DNA of 64,000 nucleotides from Naegleria gruberi. Taxonomy: Eukaryota. A program made the translations under genes and the position numbers. Shown piece after piece: positions 5,283 to 20,818 of the stretch. The notes under the pieces are model-generated. The model had not been told where the DNA came from. It made no database searches and saw only the letters and a list, made by a program, of their open reading frames with translations. Location of the stretch: NCBI GenBank assembly GCA_000004985.1, contig GG738879.1; one strand, 5' to 3'. Every line of letters begins with the position of its first letter. The stretch's first letter is position 1.

Positions 5283-6683
5283 TTACTTTGAAAAATAAGC
5301 GGCATTGTACAATTGATCATACTCCAGAACACATCCAGATTTTCGTTTCTTGGTCCAAGTTGCAGTGTCAAAGAAAAAGTAGGTTCCCTTTTCAGCTTTG
5401 GCATTTTGTTGGAAATCATTTACACTTTGATCTCTAATGAGCCACAATTGAGTTGGTTTGTGATATTTCCATCCTCTCTTTGACAGCTCTCTTGCAGCTA
5501 CAATTTGTAGCACATCACGTGGCATTGTGTAAAAGATATACAGCAGTGTTTCTTCTGTGAATTTGTCAACATGGAAGTCTTGTAACTGCACAGTAACCTT
5601 ATAACATTCTGGTAATTTGTAATCAGGTATAACATTTGATGGAGGAACCTCAGCAAAGGGAGAAGCAAAATTCTGATACAAAAACTCCGAAGCATTCAAG
5701 TTTAATCCTAGAGAGGTAAGATCCAATCCAAGAGCAAGAGCAGTCAAATCCGAATCTTTAGAAGCAAATGTATTGCTCAAACCTAACAGACCAAACTTAT
5801 CATCAGCAGTAGCAGTACGTTGTTGAATTGGTTGTTGTTGTTGTAAAGCTTGTTGTTGTTGAATTTGATAATACCTTTGTTCATATAGTAAAAACTCTTG
5901 TAAATGTTGTTCTATAGCGGAATTATCATAACCATTTTGTTGAGCAATATTTCTAACTTGTATCAGAGCTGCTTGTCTTTGTTGAGGATTAGCATTCAAA
6001 ACATTTCTGAAAATGTTATGTTGAGGGAGTGGAGGAAGTTTTTGGTTCATTGATGGATATTGACCGAATTGTTGTTGTCCATTAATCATTGACAAGATGG
6101 ATTCCGAAGGTCTATAGGAATCTCCTGTTGATGATGAAAGCAAATTTGATCCATTAGCGTTTGGTGTTGTCGATCTGTGAATCAATTGTTGTGTTGGAGA
6201 TACACTTGTTGGTGGATATTTGTTTGTATTACCAACATTTGATGATACATTGTTTTGATTTCCTTGATTTTGGAAAATACCTTGGTTATTCATTTGGTTA
6301 TTCATACCCGTTGATCCTCTAATGATATTATTATTAACTCCTTGTTGTGTACCTGTCATTGTATTCATGTTCATTCCACGGAAGGCATTACCATTTTGTC
6401 CCAAACCAGATGAAGCCATAAAACCCATTGGTGCTTGTTGATTTAAATTTCTACCCATCATATTATTTGCTCCAATAGAATTCATACCAACACCATTATT
6501 ATTTAATGATGACCCAAATTGTTGTTGTTGTCCTAATCCATTTTGGGTCAGTGCATTCAAATAACCATTCACTTGCATTGATGATCCTCCTGATGATGGT
6601 ACATTCATTAAATTATTAGTATTACCCAGGTTTTGATTTAATCCTTGAGAGGCAGAACTAGCATACGACGATGTATTTTTCAT
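5283..6683 (-). CDS. CCR4-NOT complex subunit 2/3/5 family protein (CNOT2-like). A long N/Q/G-rich low-complexity N-terminus precedes the C-terminal NOT2_3_5 domain.
   Basis: The C-terminal region (…LLYIFYTMPRDVLQIVAARELSKRGWKYHKPTQLWL…GTYFFFDTATW…VLEYDQLY) matches the conserved NOT-box of CNOT2/NOT3/NOT5. The first true ATG is MKNTSSY near 6683, and the track start further upstream is non-ATG. Confidence 0.75.
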   Translation of the reverse strand: MKNTSSYASSASQGLNQNLGNTNNLMNVPSSGGSSMQVNGYLNALTQNGLGQQQQFGSSLNNNGVGMNSIGANNMMGRNLNQQAPMGFMASSGLGQNGNAFRGMNMNTMTGTQQGVNNNIIRGSTGMNNQMNNQGIFQNQGNQNNVSSNVGNTNKYPPTSVSPTQQLIHRSTTPNANGSNLLSSSTGDSYRPSESILSMINGQQQFGQYPSMNQKLPPLPQHNIFRNVLNANPQQRQAALIQVRNIAQQNGYDNSAIEQHLQEFLLYEQRYYQIQQQQALQQQQPIQQRTATADDKFGLLGLSNTFASKDSDLTALALGLDLTSLGLNLNASEFLYQNFASPFAEVPPSNVIPDYKLPECYKVTVQLQDFHVDKFTEETLLYIFYTMPRDVLQIVAARELSKRGWKYHKPTQLWLIRDQSVNDFQQNAKAEKGTYFFFDTATWTKKRKSGCVLEYDQLYNAAYFSK

Positions 6684-6955
6684 TTTTTTTAAAATGTATT
6701 TTTTTAAAGTTATAAAAATGAAAAAAAGTAAAAATAGCAAGAAATATCGAGAAAATGATAAATTGTCAATTTACGAAAGAATTACTTGGTCGACTAACAA
6801 GAATTATTCACTAATGAGAGGGAAACATTGTCGAGTCTCTTTTTATTGCATTTAAATGGCACACTTCTCATTGAACTCACTTTCAAAATTTCAAATTATC
6901 AAAATTTGTGAATCTCACACATTGCTTTCAAAAAGGTGGAGCAAAATTTGGGTTT

Positions 6956-7483
6956 TTACCACTTCTTGTAGAGATCAACTCTTCTCTTGTGGTTTCTTCT
7001 CTTACCACCTCTTCTCTTATGATTCTTTCTGAACTTTTTACCATAGGTATCAATTCTCTTCTTGTGGAATCTTCTCTTACCATGTCTCTTACCGTGTCTC
7101 TTGTTCTTTCTGAACTTTTTACCATAGGTATCGATTCTCTTTCTCTTATAAATATCAATTCTCTTCTTGTTGTGTCTTCTCTTTCCGTATCTCTTACCAT
7201 GTCTTCTCTTATTAACTCTTTTACCATAAGTATCAAACTTCTTCTTGTAAATATCGACTCTTCTCTTCTTATGGTTACGTCTTCTCTTCTTTCCATAGGA
7301 ATCAATGTACTTGTGAGGTCTTCTCTTGTGGAGGTGTCTCTTCTTGTGCTTTCTTACTCTTGGAATATAGGTTGAGAGAGTGGAAACACTTTGAGTTTCT
7401 TCTTCACCACGAACATTTCTAATGGTGAGAGCGAGGATTGTCAATGTTAAGGCAATCAATAGAATGGAAACTATTCTTTTCAT
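6956..7483 (-). CDS. Secreted, extremely basic tandem-repeat protein (K/R/H-rich units such as IDTYGKKFRKNKRHGKRHGKRRFHKKR). Function unknown.
   Basis: ATG at 7483. The N-terminal signal peptide is MKRIVSILLIALTLTILALT, followed by a short acidic stretch and then about seven degenerate repeats built on (I/V/F)D(T/S/I/L)YGKK. The repeats are also visible at the DNA level. Confidence 0.55.
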   Translation of the reverse strand: MKRIVSILLIALTLTILALTIRNVRGEEETQSVSTLSTYIPRVRKHKKRHLHKRRPHKYIDSYGKKRRRNHKKRRVDIYKKKFDTYGKRVNKRRHGKRYGKRRHNKKRIDIYKRKRIDTYGKKFRKNKRHGKRHGKRRFHKKRIDTYGKKFRKNHKRRGGKRRNHKRRVDLYKKW

Positions 7484-7773
7484 TCTTGTTTTTTTTTCTT
7501 GTTGAATGATTGGAAGGAAGAGAGGGAATGAGTGAGATTTATAGTTCTTTGGGTGGGTAATGTGAAATGGTTGATCGACTTTTATGGAAAGAATGAAACT
7601 TGTCTACTTTCCATAAATGAAACATTTTTGACTTTGGAAAACTAACAAGAGAAAGAACTGTGTGGGTAATGACCGAGTTTAATGATCATCACTTTTGGGA
7701 TTTTCAGTATAAATAGGGCATTCCTTATTCGAATCAATTGAGAAGATTCTTCAAAATATTCAAATGTTGTGTT

Positions 7774-10091
7774 CTATCCAAAAACAATGTACATGACGCA
7801 CAACAGACCAATCAAAATCACAGAAAGTGCAACATTCAATACGTGATCAAAGTGATTCTTAATAGTTTCCTTAAATGATGTTTGTTGATTGTAAAACTCT
7901 CTTGCTGATTTCCATAATTGAGAATAATTCAACGTCAAATTTTCAGTCTTTTCAGGAGTGGATGATCCAGTTATATAAGAAATCAAGAATAAACAAATAA
8001 TACTCAACAATGCCATACAAGCACTAAAATGCAAAAAGTTTGATCTGATAAATATTTGTACTAAAGTTCTAGACCAATCTGGAAGTTTGTAAATATCAAA
8101 TGCATTACTATTGAACATGGCTTCCAAGAATAATCTCGATAATCCAATAGTATTTCCCAAAATTAAAGTGAATAAACTTCCATAATGGTTTGGTGTCTTT
8201 GAGAGAATTCCCATCAAGAAAATGACAGCAATTGGAGCTGCCAAATAGCCCATAACTTTGTGAGTGTAAATGTAAAGTTGTTTGGAGAGGACTTGAACGA
8301 CTGGAATGAAACCAAGACCAACTACTGTAACAACAGCACCTGCAATCTTACCAACAATGACATATTCGGTATTTCTGTTTGGTAGTTCAGAAGTTGAATC
8401 TTCGGCAGCTTCTCTTGGAGTTGATGGAGAATCATTCATTGGATCCAATTCTCCCAAATCAGAAACTGAAGCAGATGGTTTAGTTTCATCCAATTGAATT
8501 TCAATTTCTTCTTCAATTCTTGGTTCATTCTTTTCTTCAATGACTTCGATATTAGATTCAGCATTCAATTTAACATTTTCAGCCAATTTCTTTCTATCAA
8601 AATACTCTCTCACTACTCTATACAAATCCATTGTAAACAAAGTACTCGATGAGTGGAAAATACTTGCTAAACTACTCATCAAGGCAGCCAAAATGGCAGC
8701 AATAATTAAACCCTTAACACCAACAGGAACCAACTTGTCAATTAAAAGAATGTAAGCCACATTAGGATCCTTTTCAACTTGAGGAATCAAAACTCTGGCA
8801 ATCATTCCAGGAATAACCATTAAAAAGAATGGTAAAAATTTGAGGAAAGCTGCCAAGATACATCCTCGAATGGCATTAGCAAGATCTTTGGCAGCAAGTG
8901 CTCTTTGTACAATGGATTGATCTGTACACCAATACCTATTATTATTATTAAAAAATAAGAATATTCAATTATTACAATAAAAATTGTAAAATTTCAATAA
9001 ATTCAAAACATACCACATTGAAGTCCAAGACATTCCCAAAAAGACTCCAGTCACTGGGAAATCATGATGCCAAGGGGGTTGAAACAAGTGTAACATACTG
9101 TCTGGGAGTTGTTCTTTCAGATGTGAATAGCCACCAACTTGAACCATTCCTTGTGCATAAACTAACAAGGCACCAATAACTAAAACACCAGTTTGCAAAA
9201 CTTCAGTATAAATAACTGCACTCAATCCTCCCAAAACTGTATAAATACCTGTTGCTACGACCACTGCTGCAGCAGAAACCCAAATATTCCATCCTAAAAG
9301 TCTATTCGAAACCATTTCCAATAATTCTCAATAAATTCCACAACAATTTCAATTACTTACACTTGGAAAACCACAACACCAGCATAAATAGAAACACTAA
9401 TCTTTGTCATGACATACATTACCAAAGATAACAAACTCAAATACATTCTGGAAGTTCTATCAAATCTCTTTTCAATAAATTCAGGTAATGTATAAACTTT
9501 AGTTTTCAAATAGAATGGAATAAACAACCATCCCAACACTAAAATCCAAACAGGTGAATACAATTCTGCCATGCCAACTGCCAATCCAATTGAAGCTCCA
9601 CTCGATGACAGTCCAATAATATGTTCTGCTCCAATATTTGAGGCAAATAATGAACAAGCAATAGCAATGGCTCCAATATTACCATTGGCAAGGAAAAAGT
9701 CTTTGGAACTCTTCTTTTCTTCCTCTTGTTTTGTGTTATCTTCCTTGTTTTCAACAGACACCACTACTCCTTCGGAATTGTTTTGATCCAAAGCAGTACT
9801 AGAGCCACTAATACTTGTGGCCACATCATAGAGAGAATCCTTGGAAGGAATTGGTTGCATGGCCACATCACCATACGGATCATGTTCCTTTAAATGTTGT
9901 GGTATTTGCTGCTGATTAGACTTGAATTTAGATTGCAACCACCGATAGACTCTTTTGATATATGACCACAATGAAGAGTGCAATCCAACAATAATAACCA
10001 ATATAAAGTAAATGACAATCACGGCAATATCCAATGGTTGAAGAGGTGAAGCACCCGATGATGTAGATGATGATGATGAACTTGTTGACAT
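7774..10091 (-). CDS. Sodium:solute symporter of the SLC5/SSF family. Exons 10091..9362, 9301..9014 and 8934..7774, introns 9361..9302 and 9013..8935.
   Basis: Exon contents align with SGLT/SSF landmarks (FFLANGNIG…, …GLSAVIYTEVLQT…, …SMWYWCTDQSIVQRALAAKD…GCILAAFLKFLPFFLMVIPGMIARVL). The junctions CAAGT|GTAAGT…GAATAG|A and TGTG|GTATGT…AATAG|G restore the conserved WYWCTDQ motif in frame. Confidence 0.8.
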
Positions 10092-18742: not shown

Positions 18743-20329
18743 TTAAAAAGTATAGGAATCAGATTGAGAAATTTCTGAAGCAAGATAGGATTGGCGATTG
18801 AAGGCTGAATCAGAAACAGAGAATTCTTTAGTTTCTGGATTGTAACCTGTGGCCAACACGTAATGTTCAGTCTTCTTTCCTTGTGGCTTTTTCAATTTCA
18901 AAATAACCAATCTTCCACTACAGACATTTTTGGCAGCAATACCAATGATATCGGTTGTTCTTCCAGAATATCTCACTCCAAATTTACCAATTGAGGACCA
19001 AACAAAGAGATTTCCACTTGCATATCCCTTATTATCCTTCAACCATTGATTTAAATCTCTTGGATTCATATTTGACTTTCCAATACCATTCAAACCAGCA
19101 GCAATGGCATTAAGCAAACAACCTGCTTGACAAATTGTCTTACTTGATGATCCGAGAGAAATACTTCCCCATTGAGAATCACATTGTTTAAAAACTGGGA
19201 ACTGGGATGGTGTATATCCTGGATTACAAGTACTGGTTTGAGAAGTTGGTGGATTCTCAGTTGGTGTGGTTGGTGTTTCAGGTTGAGTTGGTGTATTTGG
19301 TGTTTCTGGTGTAGTTGGAGTTTTTGGAGTTTCAATAGTGTTCTTAATTTTTTTGTAAGTATTCTTAACCTTCTTGACAGTATTCTTGACCTTATTAACA
19401 GTGTTAGTGACCTTAGTGACAGTATTCTTAACCTTCTTGAATGTATCCTTAACCTTTGAGAAGAAACTCTTCTTCTTTTTCTTCTTCTTTTCTTGAACTG
19501 GTGGTTGAGGAGTGACTGGTGTAACAGGAGGTGTACTTGGTGTTTCTGGAGTGACTGGAACAGTAGGAACAGTTGGTGTTTCAGGTTGAGTTGGTGTAAC
19601 AGGAGTAACAGGTGTAGTTGGTGGAGTTACTGGAACAGTTGGTGTTTCTGGTTGCTTTGGAGTTTCTGGAACAGTTGGTGGTGTAGTTGGAGTTTCAGGT
19701 TGAGTTGGAGTGGTTGGAGTTTCTGGTTGTTGAGATGGTTGTTGTGGACGAATTGGAGTTGGTGGTTGTCTATTGACAATAACTCTTCTTCTTCCTCTTC
19801 TTCTTTCCTCTGGCACTTCCAATTCGAAACTAATGTTCACATTTTGTGGTTGTTTGGAATTAGCAGCAGCAGCGGCACTTGAAGCAGCAGCACTAGCAGC
19901 AACAGGTTGTTGAACTACAATAGTTTGTGGTTGTTGAATGACAGGTTGTGGAACATTGACAACTATTTCTCTACCTGGAAAGGTGCATTTTGATGAGCAT
20001 GATGAAGAACATTTAGATTTCCTTGTTTCCTTCTTCTTTCCAACAATCTTGACAATGATTTTATCCTTTCTCTTGTTGTTTTTTCTTTTTGATTTTTTAC
20101 ATTTCTTCTTGTTTCCAATAGTTTTAATGACAATCTTTCTCTCAGAAGAATGACGTTTCTTTCTTGATGAAGTTGATGATGCAAACAAATCATCGGTTAA
20201 GTAAACTTGTTGAATAGAATCATCATCATCATTGGTAGAAATTCTGACTCTCCTTCCGGAAGAAGAAGCCAAAACAACACTCAACAATAAACAAATCAAC
20301 AATGTACCCAACAAGAGTGAAATCTTCAT
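18743..20329 (-). CDS. Secreted mucin-like protein. It has a signal peptide, a basic K-rich region, Pro/Thr-rich PETPT(T/V)P repeats, KVKNTV repeats, and a C-terminal papain-fold (CHAP/C39-like) putative amidase or peptidase domain.
   Basis: ATG at 20329 with signal peptide MKISLLLGTLLICLLLSVVLA. The low-complexity middle is encoded by DNA-level repeats. The last ~170 aa are globular, with candidate nucleophile Cys (…KTICQAGCLLNAIAAGLNG…) and candidate His (…TEHYVLATGYN…) spaced as in CHAP/C39-type domains. Confidence 0.55.
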   Translation of the reverse strand: MKISLLLGTLLICLLLSVVLASSSGRRVRISTNDDDDSIQQVYLTDDLFASSTSSRKKRHSSERKIVIKTIGNKKKCKKSKRKNNKRKDKIIVKIVGKKKETRKSKCSSSCSSKCTFPGREIVVNVPQPVIQQPQTIVVQQPVAASAAASSAAAAANSKQPQNVNISFELEVPEERRRGRRRVIVNRQPPTPIRPQQPSQQPETPTTPTQPETPTTPPTVPETPKQPETPTVPVTPPTTPVTPVTPTQPETPTVPTVPVTPETPSTPPVTPVTPQPPVQEKKKKKKKSFFSKVKDTFKKVKNTVTKVTNTVNKVKNTVKKVKNTYKKIKNTIETPKTPTTPETPNTPTQPETPTTPTENPPTSQTSTCNPGYTPSQFPVFKQCDSQWGSISLGSSSKTICQAGCLLNAIAAGLNGIGKSNMNPRDLNQWLKDNKGYASGNLFVWSSIGKFGVRYSGRTTDIIGIAAKNVCSGRLVILKLKKPQGKKTEHYVLATGYNPETKEFSVSDSAFNRQSYLASEISQSDSYTF

Positions 20330-20818
20330 GTTGTTTTAATTTTTTCAAGATGAGGGAGTGAAATATGAAGGATAGCATTGTGAACAGAGTGACTCGATCT
20401 GAAAGAATATCAGGAAGGTCATGTCGAATCGTTTAATTTTGGAATACAAAATTGGAAGGTTAAAAAGTCAATGAGTATTATCATCACCACAGAATTTCTC
20501 ATTTTCCTCCATAACTTTACTTTAAATATCAATATTGATATTTGCAAAATTGATTTATCATCACAATCATAGTGATGGTATTAATGTGCTATTATTATCT
20601 TCAACAGCGGGTTGAACATCACAATGATGATCGGTGCAAGTTCATATTGCAGAATAATCAAAACACAAAAAATTATCTAGAAAATTCTCTCTCGTGCAGG
20701 AACAATCGCAATAGCAGCACCCTGGTAGTGAATATTATAAATAATTAATTTGTTCTTGTTGTATTAATAATATAGTAAAATAGTAATATAAATATAATTG
20801 TAAAATTAGCTGATCATC

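What the first reader, a model, noticed from the sequence alone, without database searches (positions are those of the whole stretch)
6956..7483. Secreted poly-cationic tandem-repeat protein, a possible multi-peptide precursor
A clear signal peptide is followed by an acidic spacer and about seven tandem units built on (I/V/F)D-x-YGKK…KR/RR. Each unit is extremely K/R/H-rich and bounded by dibasic sites. This resembles polyprotein precursors of cationic (antimicrobial or nucleic-acid-binding) peptides that are released by Kex2/furin-type cleavage. No homologue was recognisable by eye.
Basis: partly seen in the sequence, partly recalled or inferred. Interest (0 to 1): 0.55.

Follow-up and report, generated by a model that had tools for sequence, protein, structure and literature searches.

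The report
Secreted hyper-basic repeat protein of Naegleria
The ORF is a real, previously mis-annotated gene of the amoeba Naegleria gruberi, one of a small Naegleria-only family of secreted, unstructured, extremely positively charged repeat proteins; their function is untested, and they probably act as polycations rather than as a classic precursor of cationic peptides.

Summary
Window 6956..7483 (minus strand) encodes a 175-aa protein. It has a signal-peptide-like N-terminus, a short conserved EE…STLSTYI segment, and a 134-aa tail that is 46% K+R (54% with His, net about +59). The tail carries exactly seven [IVF]-D-x-Y cores, compared with 0.06 expected by chance.

The window is Naegleria gruberi NEG-M. 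The gene is real:
- It shows purifying selection (dN/dS 0.2-0.45).
- It has no substitutions against a second strain, while the flanks differ.
- A TATA box and A-rich leader are conserved upstream.
- Its codon bias is strong.
- Four paralogues sit on other scaffolds.
- A syntenic orthologue with its own stop codon lies upstream of NOT2 in another Naegleria.

GenBank lacks it as a separate gene. The deposited model splices its first 131 codons onto the neighbouring CCR4-NOT subunit, which is an artefact.

No homologue was found outside Naegleria, and there was no Pfam, PDB or confident fold match.

The "precursor of cationic peptides" reading is only partly supported. Dibasic sites are so dense (42 in 149 aa) that cleavage would destroy cationic peptides, leaving short [IVF]DxY(G) cores. 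There is no amphipathic signal.

Best guess, at low confidence: a bulk secreted polycation that binds polyanions such as prey bacteria. The main rival is a Kex2-type precursor of small core peptides.

The parts
6956..7483 (-). Complete single-exon CDS (175 codons + TAA stop at 6956-6958) of a secreted hyper-basic repeat protein. It is the unannotated fifth N. gruberi member of a Naegleria-only family.
   Evidence: ORF. Homologues only in Naegleria. dN/dS 0.2-0.45 against paralogues. 0 differences in 528 nt against strain contig L001, while the flanks differ.
7406..7483 (-). Predicted signal peptide, aa 1-26 (MKRIVSILLIALTLTILALTIRNVRG). This is the most conserved part of the family.
   Evidence: Alignment A3: M1-L14 is almost invariant, and V at -3 with a small residue at -1 is kept in the paralogues. 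It is the only confident AF2 element, a helix with pLDDT 83-85. Differences from the paralogues in its codons are mainly synonymous, dN/dS 0.2-0.4. Weak hits to bacterial signal-peptide models only.
7361..7405 (-). Short acidic/uncharged N-terminal segment of the mature chain, aa 27-41 (EEETQSVSTLSTYIP). EE and STLS[TL]Y are conserved.
6959..7360 (-). Polybasic, disordered repeat region, aa 42-175. It holds seven [IVF]DxY cores at nt 7295-7306, 7247-7258, 7226-7237, 7148-7159, 7124-7135, 7043-7054 and 6968-6979. The last core is 3 residues from the C-terminus, as in every family member.
   Evidence: motif statistics. (pLDDT about 40-57). (conserved C-terminal [VIF]DxYK..).
7023..7141 (-). Most recent internal duplication: two copies of the IDTYGKKFRKN unit, 81 nt apart.
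   Evidence: the repeat finder family D3, 7023-7060 versus 7104-7141, 97% identical. TRF rows.
7537..7543 (-). TATA-box-like TATAAAT 54 nt upstream of the ATG, followed by an A/C-rich leader (…ACAAGAAAAAAAAACAAGA-ATG).
   Evidence: The same arrangement is found upstream of the homologues in L002, L004 (TATAAAT) and L003 (TTTAAAT).
6842..6955 (-). 3' UTR with three AATTTTG motifs (6942-6948, 6900-6906, 6884-6890) and an AATAAA (6842-6847) 109 nt after the stop.
   Evidence: The motif is also present 1-2 times in the first 40 nt or so of the 3' UTRs of L002, L004, L003 and L008.
6590..7092 (-). Pseudo-intron (503 nt, GT…AG) used by the deposited gene model to fuse codons 1-131 of this gene to the NOT2/3/5 gene. 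Its donor G|GTAAGA lies inside the codons for H-G-K-R.
   Evidence: Joining 7093..7483 to 5283..6589 reproduces the 565-aa GenBank protein P0012 exactly.

Best explanation
This is a genuine, independently transcribed N. gruberi gene. It is the largest member of a Naegleria-restricted multigene family of small proteins.

**Proposed route and action.**
1. The protein enters the secretory pathway through a cleaved signal peptide.
2. It consists otherwise of an intrinsically disordered, hydrophilic polycation of about 19 kDa and net about +59. Short [IVF]-D-x-Y(-G) cores are embedded in it, and the C-terminus is always …[VIF]DxYK[KRS]x.
3. The most likely mode of action is electrostatic. The mature chain, intact or only partly trimmed, is delivered to the outside or to the phagosomal/lysosomal lumen.
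4. There it binds polyanionic targets, most plausibly the envelopes and nucleic acids of ingested bacteria, in the manner of protamine- or histatin-type hydrophilic polycations.
5. The Tyr-containing cores would serve as the only sequence-specific contact or recognition points.

**Shown:** gene reality, family, composition, repeats, disorder and the mis-annotation.

**Inferred from sequence:** secretion and signal-peptide cleavage.

**Inferred without direct evidence:** polyanion or bacterial binding as the function.
For: **The gene is real.**
- dN/dS is 0.21-0.45 with near-saturated dS against the paralogues.
- There are 0 of 528 differences against a second strain, compared with 12 substitutions and an indel in about 730 nt of flanking intergenic DNA.
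- The TATA box and leader are conserved.
- AAG is used for 89% of Lys and AGA for 94% of Arg, against 56% and 71% in other window genes.

**It is a family.**
- Four N. gruberi paralogues lie on other scaffolds, and there are metagenomic Naegleria homologues.
- A syntenic orthologue with its own stop codon lies 250 nt upstream of NOT2 in L008.
- An HMM search of 1.84 billion proteins finds nothing else.

**Charge itself appears to be selected.**
- K+R is 42-48% in every member, although the number of cores ranges from 2 to 7.
- Window versus L008: 63 of 106 aligned positions are identical and 52 are basic in both.
- Differences between L002 and L004 keep the basic, hydrophilic character.

**It is disordered and not membrane-lytic.** AF2 pLDDT is 53.6. 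The hydrophobic moment is no greater than in shuffles, and 13% of residues are hydrophobic.

**Topology.** The flank after the hydrophobic core is acidic and the N-terminal flank is basic in all members, which favours translocation of the C-terminal part (charge-difference rule, established knowledge).
Against: - There is no expression, localisation or activity evidence. No paper in the library mentions the paralogue accessions.
- The signal peptide was not scored with a trained predictor. An 18-residue core could instead act as a signal anchor.
- A kexin/furin-like protease exists in the genus. A disordered chain with 28 KR/RR sites might therefore not survive the Golgi intact.
- The strict context [KR][KR]-ΦDxY-(G)-[KR][KR] of the only conserved motif looks like a processing unit.
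- There is no anionic pro-piece to neutralise +59, unlike most antimicrobial-peptide precursors.
- The family was not found in the N. fowleri or N. lovaniensis protein sets, nor at their syntenic locus. It is therefore not a general Naegleria requirement.
Confidence: 0.4

Rival explanations
1. Kex2-type repeat precursor whose products are the non-basic cores. A kexin-like convertase cuts at the KR/RR (and KK) sites and a carboxypeptidase trims the basic residues. About seven copies of 4-12-aa [IVF]DxY(G)-containing peptides are released, for example IDTYG, FDTYG, VDIY and IDTYGKKFRKN. They act as secreted signals or small effectors, and the polybasic stretches are spacers.
For: - Every mature Asp in all 8 family sequences lies in Φ-D-x-Y. 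It is nearly always preceded by two basic residues and followed by G-K-K, K-K-K or R-K-K.
- The digestion simulation gives seven core-containing peptides.
- Copy number varies between species (2-7), as in multi-copy peptide precursors (PMC5850478, found).
- Formally it passes the published KEP screen: signal peptide, at least 3 similar fragments between KR/KK/RR sites, and repeats covering at least 15% of the length (28/175 = 16%) (PMC6339444).
- An S08B kexin/furin homologue is listed for N. fowleri.
Against: - The polybasic character is kept at 42-48% even where only 2 cores remain (P0002/P0004), with about 70 aa of core-less basic sequence. That is unexpected for mere spacers.
- Many boundaries are KK or HKY rather than KR/RR.
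- The G-K-K 'amidation' look is probably irrelevant. A review states that excavates lack peptidylglycine amidating monooxygenase (PMC6529398; Naegleria is not named there).
- There is no peptidomic evidence.
Confidence: 0.25
2. One reading: a polyprotein that releases several cationic antimicrobial or nucleic-acid-binding peptides by Kex2/furin cleavage at the unit boundaries only.
For: - The architecture is signal peptide, then EE segment, then a repeated basic region.
- P1=Arg cleavage would give two copies of IDTYGKKFRKN(H), net +3.
- The family is rapidly evolving, multi-copy and lineage-restricted, as is typical of defence effectors.
Against: - Dibasic sites occur every 3-4 residues inside the units, so boundary-only cleavage has no sequence basis. 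There are 0 furin R-x-[KR]-R sites.
- The surviving peptides are 12 aa or shorter, weakly charged, and not conserved among paralogues.
- There is no amphipathicity.
- There are no intervening acidic pro-pieces.
Confidence: 0.08
3. Structural or adhesive polycation: a secreted Tyr/Gly/Lys/His-containing basic protein that complexes with a polyanionic partner (acidic glycan, phosphoprotein or polyphosphate). It would build or cement an extracellular layer such as the cyst wall, the pore plug or a substrate adhesive, possibly with Tyr cross-linking.
For: - The polycation is disordered, with regularly embedded Tyr next to Lys (YGKK, YKKK).
- Strong codon bias suggests bulk production.
- It resembles basic Y/G/K-rich marine cement proteins (from memory, not tested).
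Against: - Tyr is only 7% of residues.
- No partner gene is evident nearby.
- There are no stage-specific expression data.
- The family was not found in the protein sets of N. fowleri or N. lovaniensis. Those species also make cysts (own knowledge, not checked here).
Confidence: 0.12
4. The N-terminal hydrophobic segment is not cleaved. It anchors the protein as a type II membrane protein, so the polycation is displayed on the cell surface or the lumenal face instead of being soluble.
For: - The hydrophobic core is long (18 residues; mean Kyte-Doolittle about 2.8 by my arithmetic).
- It is unusually well conserved for a signal peptide.
- AF2 models residues 2-26 as one helix.
Against: - The -3/-1 small-residue pattern is conserved (V-x-G/A/C), and a polar, helix-breaking c-region (TSG, TGN, RNVRG) precedes it in all members.
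Confidence: 0.1
5. The deposited GenBank model is right: the ORF is exon 1 of the NOT2/3/5 gene, spliced from 7093 to 6589. Alternatively, the ORF is a compositional artefact or a non-secreted nucleolar/ribosomal basic protein.
For: - The deposited 565-aa protein P0012 uses a GT…AG junction with a good donor, G|GTAAGA.
- The antisense strand also has a long ORF, 6908-7375.
Against: - NOT2 orthologues of N. fowleri, N. lovaniensis and a third Naegleria are 457-468 aa. They start like the stand-alone window ORF 5283-6683 and lack the extension.
- The ORF continues for 44 codons past the 'donor' to the family's conserved C-terminus.
- The L008 orthologue has its own stop and a 250-nt spacer before NOT2.
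- The paralogues sit at other loci. For the one whose flanks were read (L003, the strain counterpart of P0001) no NOT2 gene is adjacent.
- A signal peptide on a cytosolic CCR4-NOT subunit makes no sense.
- There are no Pfam or NCBIfam ribosomal or nucleolar hits.
- The antisense ORF is expected from AAG/AGA-rich sense codons.
Confidence: 0.03

Closest known systems
Fungal KEX2-processed repeat proteins (KEPs: alpha-factor precursors, Ustilago Rep1, ustiloxin precursor UstA)
   Same: Both have a signal peptide and several copies of a short conserved core flanked by KR/KK/RR. Copy number varies between relatives. The protein passes the formal screen of PMC6339444, though only just (16% against a 15% coverage threshold).
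   Different: There is no homology, and this is an excavate, not a fungus. The spacers are long polybasic tracts that are themselves conserved in composition, rather than minimal cleavage sites. Processing has not been shown.
Hydrophilic polycationic antimicrobials: histatins and protamines (from memory)
   Same: Both are very rich in K/R/H with scattered Tyr/Gly/Phe, are disordered and lack Cys. Action by charge is plausible. The window copy and its L008 orthologue are also His-rich (8-11%).
   Different: There is no sequence relationship (Pfam, PDB and HMM searches were empty). It is much longer than a histatin. It is secreted through a signal peptide, unlike protamines. Activity is untested.
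Hydra arminins and similar taxonomically restricted antimicrobial-peptide families (from memory)
   Same: Both are orphan, lineage-restricted multigene families. Both have a signal peptide, a short anionic segment and a strongly cationic C-terminal part.
   Different: Arminins have a sizeable anionic pro-region and one cationic peptide of about 30 aa. Here there are 3 acidic residues against about 68 basic ones, plus a repeat architecture.
Naegleriapores (SAPLIP multi-peptide precursors of Naegleria)
   Same: They occur in the same genus. Several antimicrobial peptides are released from one secreted precursor (literature found).
   Different: Naegleriapores are saposin-like, Cys-rich and folded. 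This protein has no Cys and no fold.
Amidated neuropeptide and prohormone precursors (X-Gly-Lys-Arg/Lys units)
   Same: 9 of 10 Gly residues are followed by two basic residues, and Y-G-K-K recurs.
   Different: The amidating enzyme is reported absent from excavates (PMC6529398). Three of the seven cores lack the Gly.

Membership tests
KEX2-processed repeat protein / multi-copy peptide precursor | N-terminal signal peptide | tested here: inconclusive
   The n/h/c regions and the -3/-1 rule are readable and conserved. No trained predictor (SignalP) was available.
KEX2-processed repeat protein / multi-copy peptide precursor | At least 3 similar fragments delimited by KR/KK/RR, covering at least 15% of the protein (PMC6339444) | tested here: met
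   Seven ΦDxY(G) fragments result from dibasic digestion. Coverage is 28/175 = 16%, which is borderline (for the criteria).
KEX2-processed repeat protein / multi-copy peptide precursor | Kexin-type protease in the organism and released peptides detected | not testable with these tools
   An S08B kexin/furin homologue is listed for N. fowleri only (PMC8296547 supplementary file 13). The N. gruberi proteome could not be queried, and there are no peptidomics data.
Amidated peptide precursor | Gly-dibasic after each product, and PAM (PHM+PAL) in the organism | tested here: inconclusive
   The Gly-dibasic pattern is present. A review says excavates 'completely lack PAM', but Naegleria is not named there and was not searched here.
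Linear amphipathic alpha-helical cationic antimicrobial peptides | Amphipathic helix (high hydrophobic moment) and roughly 30-50% hydrophobic residues | tested here: not met
   In three of the four family proteins tested, the maximum and mean hydrophobic moment at 100° lie within shuffles. Only P0002's mean is high (7-11 of 2000 shuffles reach it), and its maximum is not. Hydrophobic fraction is 12-18%, and 13% for the window protein.
Histatin/protamine-like hydrophilic polycations | Homology to the family | tested here: not met
   There is no Pfam, NCBIfam or PDB hit, and the HMM search of 1.84 billion proteins found only Naegleria family members. The resemblance is compositional only.
Naegleriapore / saposin-like proteins | Saposin fold with six conserved Cys | tested here: not met
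   There are 0 Cys in the mature chain, no Pfam SapB hit and a disordered model.
CCR4-NOT subunit NOT2/3/5 (as in the deposited model) | The N-terminal extension is shared by orthologues and continuous with the NOT2 reading frame | tested here: not met
   The orthologues lack it. A stop codon and a 272-nt spacer separate the two ORFs. The orthologous arrangement in L008 has separate genes.
Ribosomal / nucleolar basic protein | Match to a known family and no secretory N-terminus | tested here: not met
   There is no family match. The hydrophobic N-terminus is conserved in the three complete N. gruberi paralogues and in the metagenomic homologues. The exceptions are P0007, whose N-terminus looks mis-modelled, and L008, which is cut at its N-terminus.

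The most novel reading that the evidence does not exclude
The family encodes multi-copy precursors of tiny secreted [IVF]-D-x-Y(-Gly) peptides, released by a kexin-like convertase. This would be an alpha-factor/KEP-style peptide-signalling system (pheromone, density or prey-related signal) in a heterolobosean amoeba, a lineage where no peptide signal is known to me (from memory, not checked here). The polybasic spacers would double as an antimicrobial or carrier by-product.
Probability: 0.2. Interest if true: 0.7.

Novelty: new variant of a known kind. Interest (0 to 1): 0.4.

Why it matters
**Immediate correction.** A GenBank/RefSeq gene model of the reference N. gruberi genome is chimeric: a secreted polybasic protein is fused to a CCR4-NOT subunit. 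As a result the largest member of this family is invisible in protein databases.

**Biology.** The family is an orphan, fast-changing, probably abundantly translated set of secreted polycations in a bacterivorous amoeba, and was not found in the protein sets of the pathogenic relative. If it is antimicrobial, it would be a second, structurally very different effector class beside the naegleriapores. If it is processed into ΦDxY peptides, it would extend Kex2-type repeat-peptide signalling far outside fungi and animals. Either possibility can be tested directly with synthetic peptides and mass spectrometry.

Tried and rejected
- **Family and structure searches.** Pfam, NCBIfam, PDB sequence search and Rfam on the region gave nothing beyond weak signal-peptide look-alikes and a chance lncRNA hit.
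- **Structure prediction.** AF2 with the family alignment gave a disordered model (pLDDT 53.6). I therefore ran no fold search.
- **Metagenome scan.** The JGI scan with family patterns found 600 pattern hits, none confirmed.
- **Other copies.** A six-frame HMM scan of the window and of the N. fowleri NOT2 locus found no further copy. The one weak hit (window 18746-20335, E = 3e-4) appears to be only another signal peptide, judging from the ORF's N-terminal sequence; the matched region was not inspected.
- **N. lovaniensis locus.** I inspected it only through its called genes and ORFs next to NOT2.
- **Paralogue DNA.** Exact-sequence look-ups of the N. gruberi paralogues returned no DNA. Paralogue DNA therefore came from metagenome contigs L002-L004 and L008.
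- **Literature.** No paper or held supplement mentions the paralogue accessions, so no expression evidence was obtained. One search on Naegleria plus kexin terms was uninformative.
- **Amphipathicity.** The amphipathic-helix and beta-periodicity tests were not above shuffles.
- **Amidation.** I considered the idea and downgraded it.
- **Shared duplicated segment.** I tested whether the paralogue locus L003 and the window share one, since both have an RCC1-like neighbour, and rejected it.
- **Short-range dN/dS (L002 versus L004).** 11 non-synonymous against 0 synonymous changes in the basic part. This is not significant and is partly one clustered event.
Full report

- **N-terminus.** The protein starts MKR-IVSILLIALTLTILALTI-RNVRG|EEE. 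This reads as a basic n-region, an 18-residue hydrophobic core and a polar c-region with Val at -3 and Gly at -1.
- **Composition after G26.** The 149-aa chain is 24% Lys, 21% Arg and 8% His. It has 7% acidic residues and no Cys. Its pI is 11.8 and its net charge about +59.
- **Repeats.** All seven Asp residues lie in [IVF]-D-x-Y cores (aa 60, 76, 83, 109, 117, 144, 169). Shuffles of the mature sequence average 0.06 such cores, and none of 100,000 reached seven.
- **Glycines.** Nine of ten Gly are followed by two basic residues (shuffle mean 2.1; 1 of 100,000 reached nine).
- **Regularity.** The array is degenerate, with cores 7-27 residues apart. At DNA level the only clean recent duplication is an 81-nt unit, 7023-7060 versus 7104-7141, 97% identical.
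- **The 'acidic spacer'.** It amounts to three Glu.

**2. Whose genome, and is it a gene?**

Four long window ORFs are identical to Naegleria gruberi proteins EFC42510, EFC42512, EFC42436 and EFC42514, all on a 384,281-bp scaffold. The window is therefore N. gruberi NEG-M, a bacterivorous amoeboflagellate.

The exact 175-aa protein is absent from NCBI and UniRef. It is encoded on a 2.5-kb metagenome contig (L001) from a closely related strain. L001 and the window show no difference in the 528-nt CDS. There are 12 substitutions and one indel in the roughly 730 nt of flanking intergenic DNA.

Evidence that the minus-strand frame is a functional coding sequence:
- Against paralogues and orthologues, Nei-Gojobori dN/dS is 0.21-0.45 with dS near saturation. 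In the signal-peptide codons the differences from the paralogues are mainly synonymous.
- A TATAAAT lies 54 nt upstream of the ATG (7537-7543), followed by an A/C-rich leader. The same arrangement precedes the homologues in L002, L004 and L003.
- Codon use is strongly skewed relative to 13 other window genes: AAG 89% versus 56%, AGA 94% versus 71%, GGT 82% versus 43%, and C-ending His/Asn/Phe codons. This is the direction usually seen in well-translated genes, and it avoids AAA runs. That reading is inference, because no Naegleria reference set was available.
- The long antisense ORF (6908-7375) is the expected by-product of AAG/AGA-rich codons.

**3. The family.**

A sequence search and then a profile search of 5.8 billion proteins, plus a full HMMER scan of 1.84 billion representatives, found only Naegleria sequences:
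- Four N. gruberi 'predicted proteins' on four other scaffolds: NAEGRDRAFT_71365, 71069, 68008 and 68479, of 110-133 aa.
- Metagenomic relatives P0002/P0004 and P0003.

Features shared by all:
- The nearly invariant start MKR[IF][VI]SILLIALTL.
- A V-x-(A/C/G) cleavage-type site followed by EE.
- The segment STLS[TL]Y.
- A polybasic body that is 42-48% K+R.
- [ILVF]DxY cores, numbering 2 to 7.
- A C-terminus …[VIF]DxYK[KRS]x, three residues after the last core.

A contig from another Naegleria species (L008; its NOT2 is 57% identical) carries a syntenic orthologue directly upstream of NOT2. That orthologue has seven Asp-containing cores plus one degenerate HTYGKR unit, is 11% His, and has its own stop codon and a 250-nt spacer.

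The N. fowleri and N. lovaniensis protein sets gave no hit, and their NOT2 loci carry a PhyH-like gene at the corresponding position. The N. fowleri locus was also negative in a six-frame HMM scan. Whole-genome absence was not tested.

**4. A mis-annotation explains why the protein looked new.**

The HMM scan returned a 565-aa GenBank N. gruberi protein, P0012. Its first 131 residues are this ORF and the rest is the neighbouring NOT2/3/5 homologue. Joining 7093..7483 to 5283..6589 reproduces it exactly. The 'intron' is 6590..7092, 503 nt, with its donor G|GTAAGA inside the codons for H-G-K-R.

The fusion is an artefact, for these reasons:
- NOT2 orthologues from three other Naegleria are 457-468 aa and align only with the stand-alone ORF 5283-6683.
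- This ORF runs on for 44 codons to the family's conserved C-terminus.
- L008 shows two separate genes.
- The paralogues lie at other loci. The one whose flanks could be read (L003) has no NOT2 gene beside it.

**5. What the protein is like.**

- AlphaFold2 with the family alignment gives pLDDT 53.6. Only the N-terminal helix is confident, so the basic body is disordered.
- There are no meaningful Pfam, NCBIfam or PDB matches, and no Rfam match.
- Helical and strand hydrophobic moments are not above shuffles, and only 13% of residues are hydrophobic.

It is therefore not an amphipathic, membrane-lytic peptide type.

**6. Testing the 'polyprotein of cationic peptides' idea.**

- The mature chain has 42 overlapping dibasic pairs.
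- Cutting at every one and trimming basic residues leaves only neutral or acidic pieces: EEETQSVSTLSTYIPRV, PHKYIDSYG, VDIY, FDTYG, IDIY, IDTYG (twice), VDLY and some di- or tri-peptides.
- Kex2-like specificity (P1 = Arg, 28 sites) leaves peptides of at most 20 aa. The repeat-derived ones are 12 aa or shorter, the most basic being IDTYGKKFRKN(H), net +3.
- There is no R-x-[KR]-R furin site.
- Nothing in the sequence would restrict cleavage to unit boundaries, and no acidic pro-pieces separate the units.

Two consistent readings remain.

*(A) The polycation itself is the product.* The constancy of charge favours this. K+R stays at 42-48% whether a member has 2 or 7 cores, including about 70 aa of core-less basic sequence in P0002/P0004. 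Substitutions keep basic character.

*(B) The non-basic cores are the product, in a KEP/alpha-factor-like arrangement.* Several points favour this:
- The only sequence-specific conserved element sits in the strict context [KR][KR]-ΦDxY-(G)-[KR][KR].
- Copy number varies.
- An S08B kexin/furin homologue is listed for N. fowleri (PMC8296547 supplementary file 13).
- A disordered chain with 28 KR/RR sites may not pass such an enzyme intact.
- The protein formally passes the published KEP screen, though barely: 16% repeat coverage against a 15% threshold (PMC6339444).

The Gly-Lys-Lys look of amidation sites is probably irrelevant. A review states that excavates lack the amidating enzyme (PMC6529398); Naegleria is not named there.

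**7. Verdict.**

- **High confidence.** This is a real, separately transcribed, mis-annotated gene. It belongs to a Naegleria-restricted multigene family and encodes a disordered hyper-basic repeat protein.
- **Moderate confidence.** It enters the secretory pathway through a cleaved signal peptide. A signal-anchor alternative remains.
- **Low confidence (about 0.4).** It works as a bulk polycation binding polyanions, most plausibly prey bacteria in or around the phagosome. This would be protamine- or histatin-like in principle but unrelated in sequence.
- **Main rival (about 0.25).** Kex2-type release of small ΦDxY(G) peptides.
- **Further rival.** A structural or cement role.

No expression, localisation or activity data could be found.

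I rate it a new variant of a known kind (secreted cationic repeat or peptide-precursor proteins), of moderate interest. Its concrete by-product is a correction to the reference annotation.

Noticed in passing
window 5283-7483 (minus strand): The deposited N. gruberi protein P0012 (565 aa) is a chimera. Exon 7093..7483 of the polybasic gene is spliced to 5283..6589 of the NOT2/3/5 gene across a 503-nt pseudo-intron. The stand-alone NOT2 ORF (5283-6683, 466 aa) matches the length and N-terminus of its orthologues.
   Followed up: yes
window 6884-6948 (minus strand); L002 541-557; L003 1600-1617; L008 about 428-435: The heptamer AATTTTG occurs three times within 70 nt of the window gene's 3' UTR. 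It occurs twice in the 3' UTRs of L002, L004 and L003 and once in L008. In the whole window it is not over-represented (46 found, 55 expected). It may be a shared post-transcriptional element of the family.
   Followed up: partly
L002 530-616 versus L004 550-636: The two closely related homologues have 100% identical 3' flanks (87 nt). Their 5' flanks are heavily diverged, and the CDS differences are almost all non-synonymous: 11 against 0 in the basic part, including a cluster changing NFHKL to KHQHK. This could be diversifying selection, gene conversion or a conserved 3' element; it is unresolved.
   Followed up: partly
L002 110-601; L004 127-621: The metagenome gene calls for P0002/P0004 read through the TAG stop after …VD[FL]YKKK and add 24 spurious residues. 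The real proteins are 139 and 140 aa.
   Followed up: yes
L004 1-17: The contig starts with CGACGCTCTTCCGATCT, which looks like the tail of an Illumina adapter left in the assembly (recognised from memory).
   Followed up: no
P0007 (NAEGRDRAFT_68479), residues 1-35: This paralogue's annotated N-terminus (MVMGFRHTQTQTQ…) lacks the family signal peptide. It is probably another faulty gene model or a truncated copy. Its DNA could not be fetched.
   Followed up: no
L005/L006 (N. fowleri) and L007 (N. lovaniensis), 6300-8000: In both species a PhyH-like gene occupies the position upstream of NOT2 where N. gruberi and the L008 species have the polybasic gene. The sodium:solute symporter lies about 6 kb away in the opposite orientation. 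The gene was therefore either gained in the gruberi-like lineage or lost or moved in the fowleri/lovaniensis lineage.
   Followed up: partly
window 6532: The second strain (L001) has a 6-nt in-frame insertion (two extra codons) in the Q/N-rich low-complexity part of the NOT2 gene.
   Followed up: no
window 18743-20329 (minus strand): A 528-aa ORF begins MKISLLLGTLLICLLLSVVLASSSGRR… followed by an Asp-rich stretch. It gave a weak hit (E = 3e-4) to the family HMM. From its sequence this looks like signal-peptide similarity only, but the matched region was not inspected. It is otherwise uncharacterised here.
   Followed up: no
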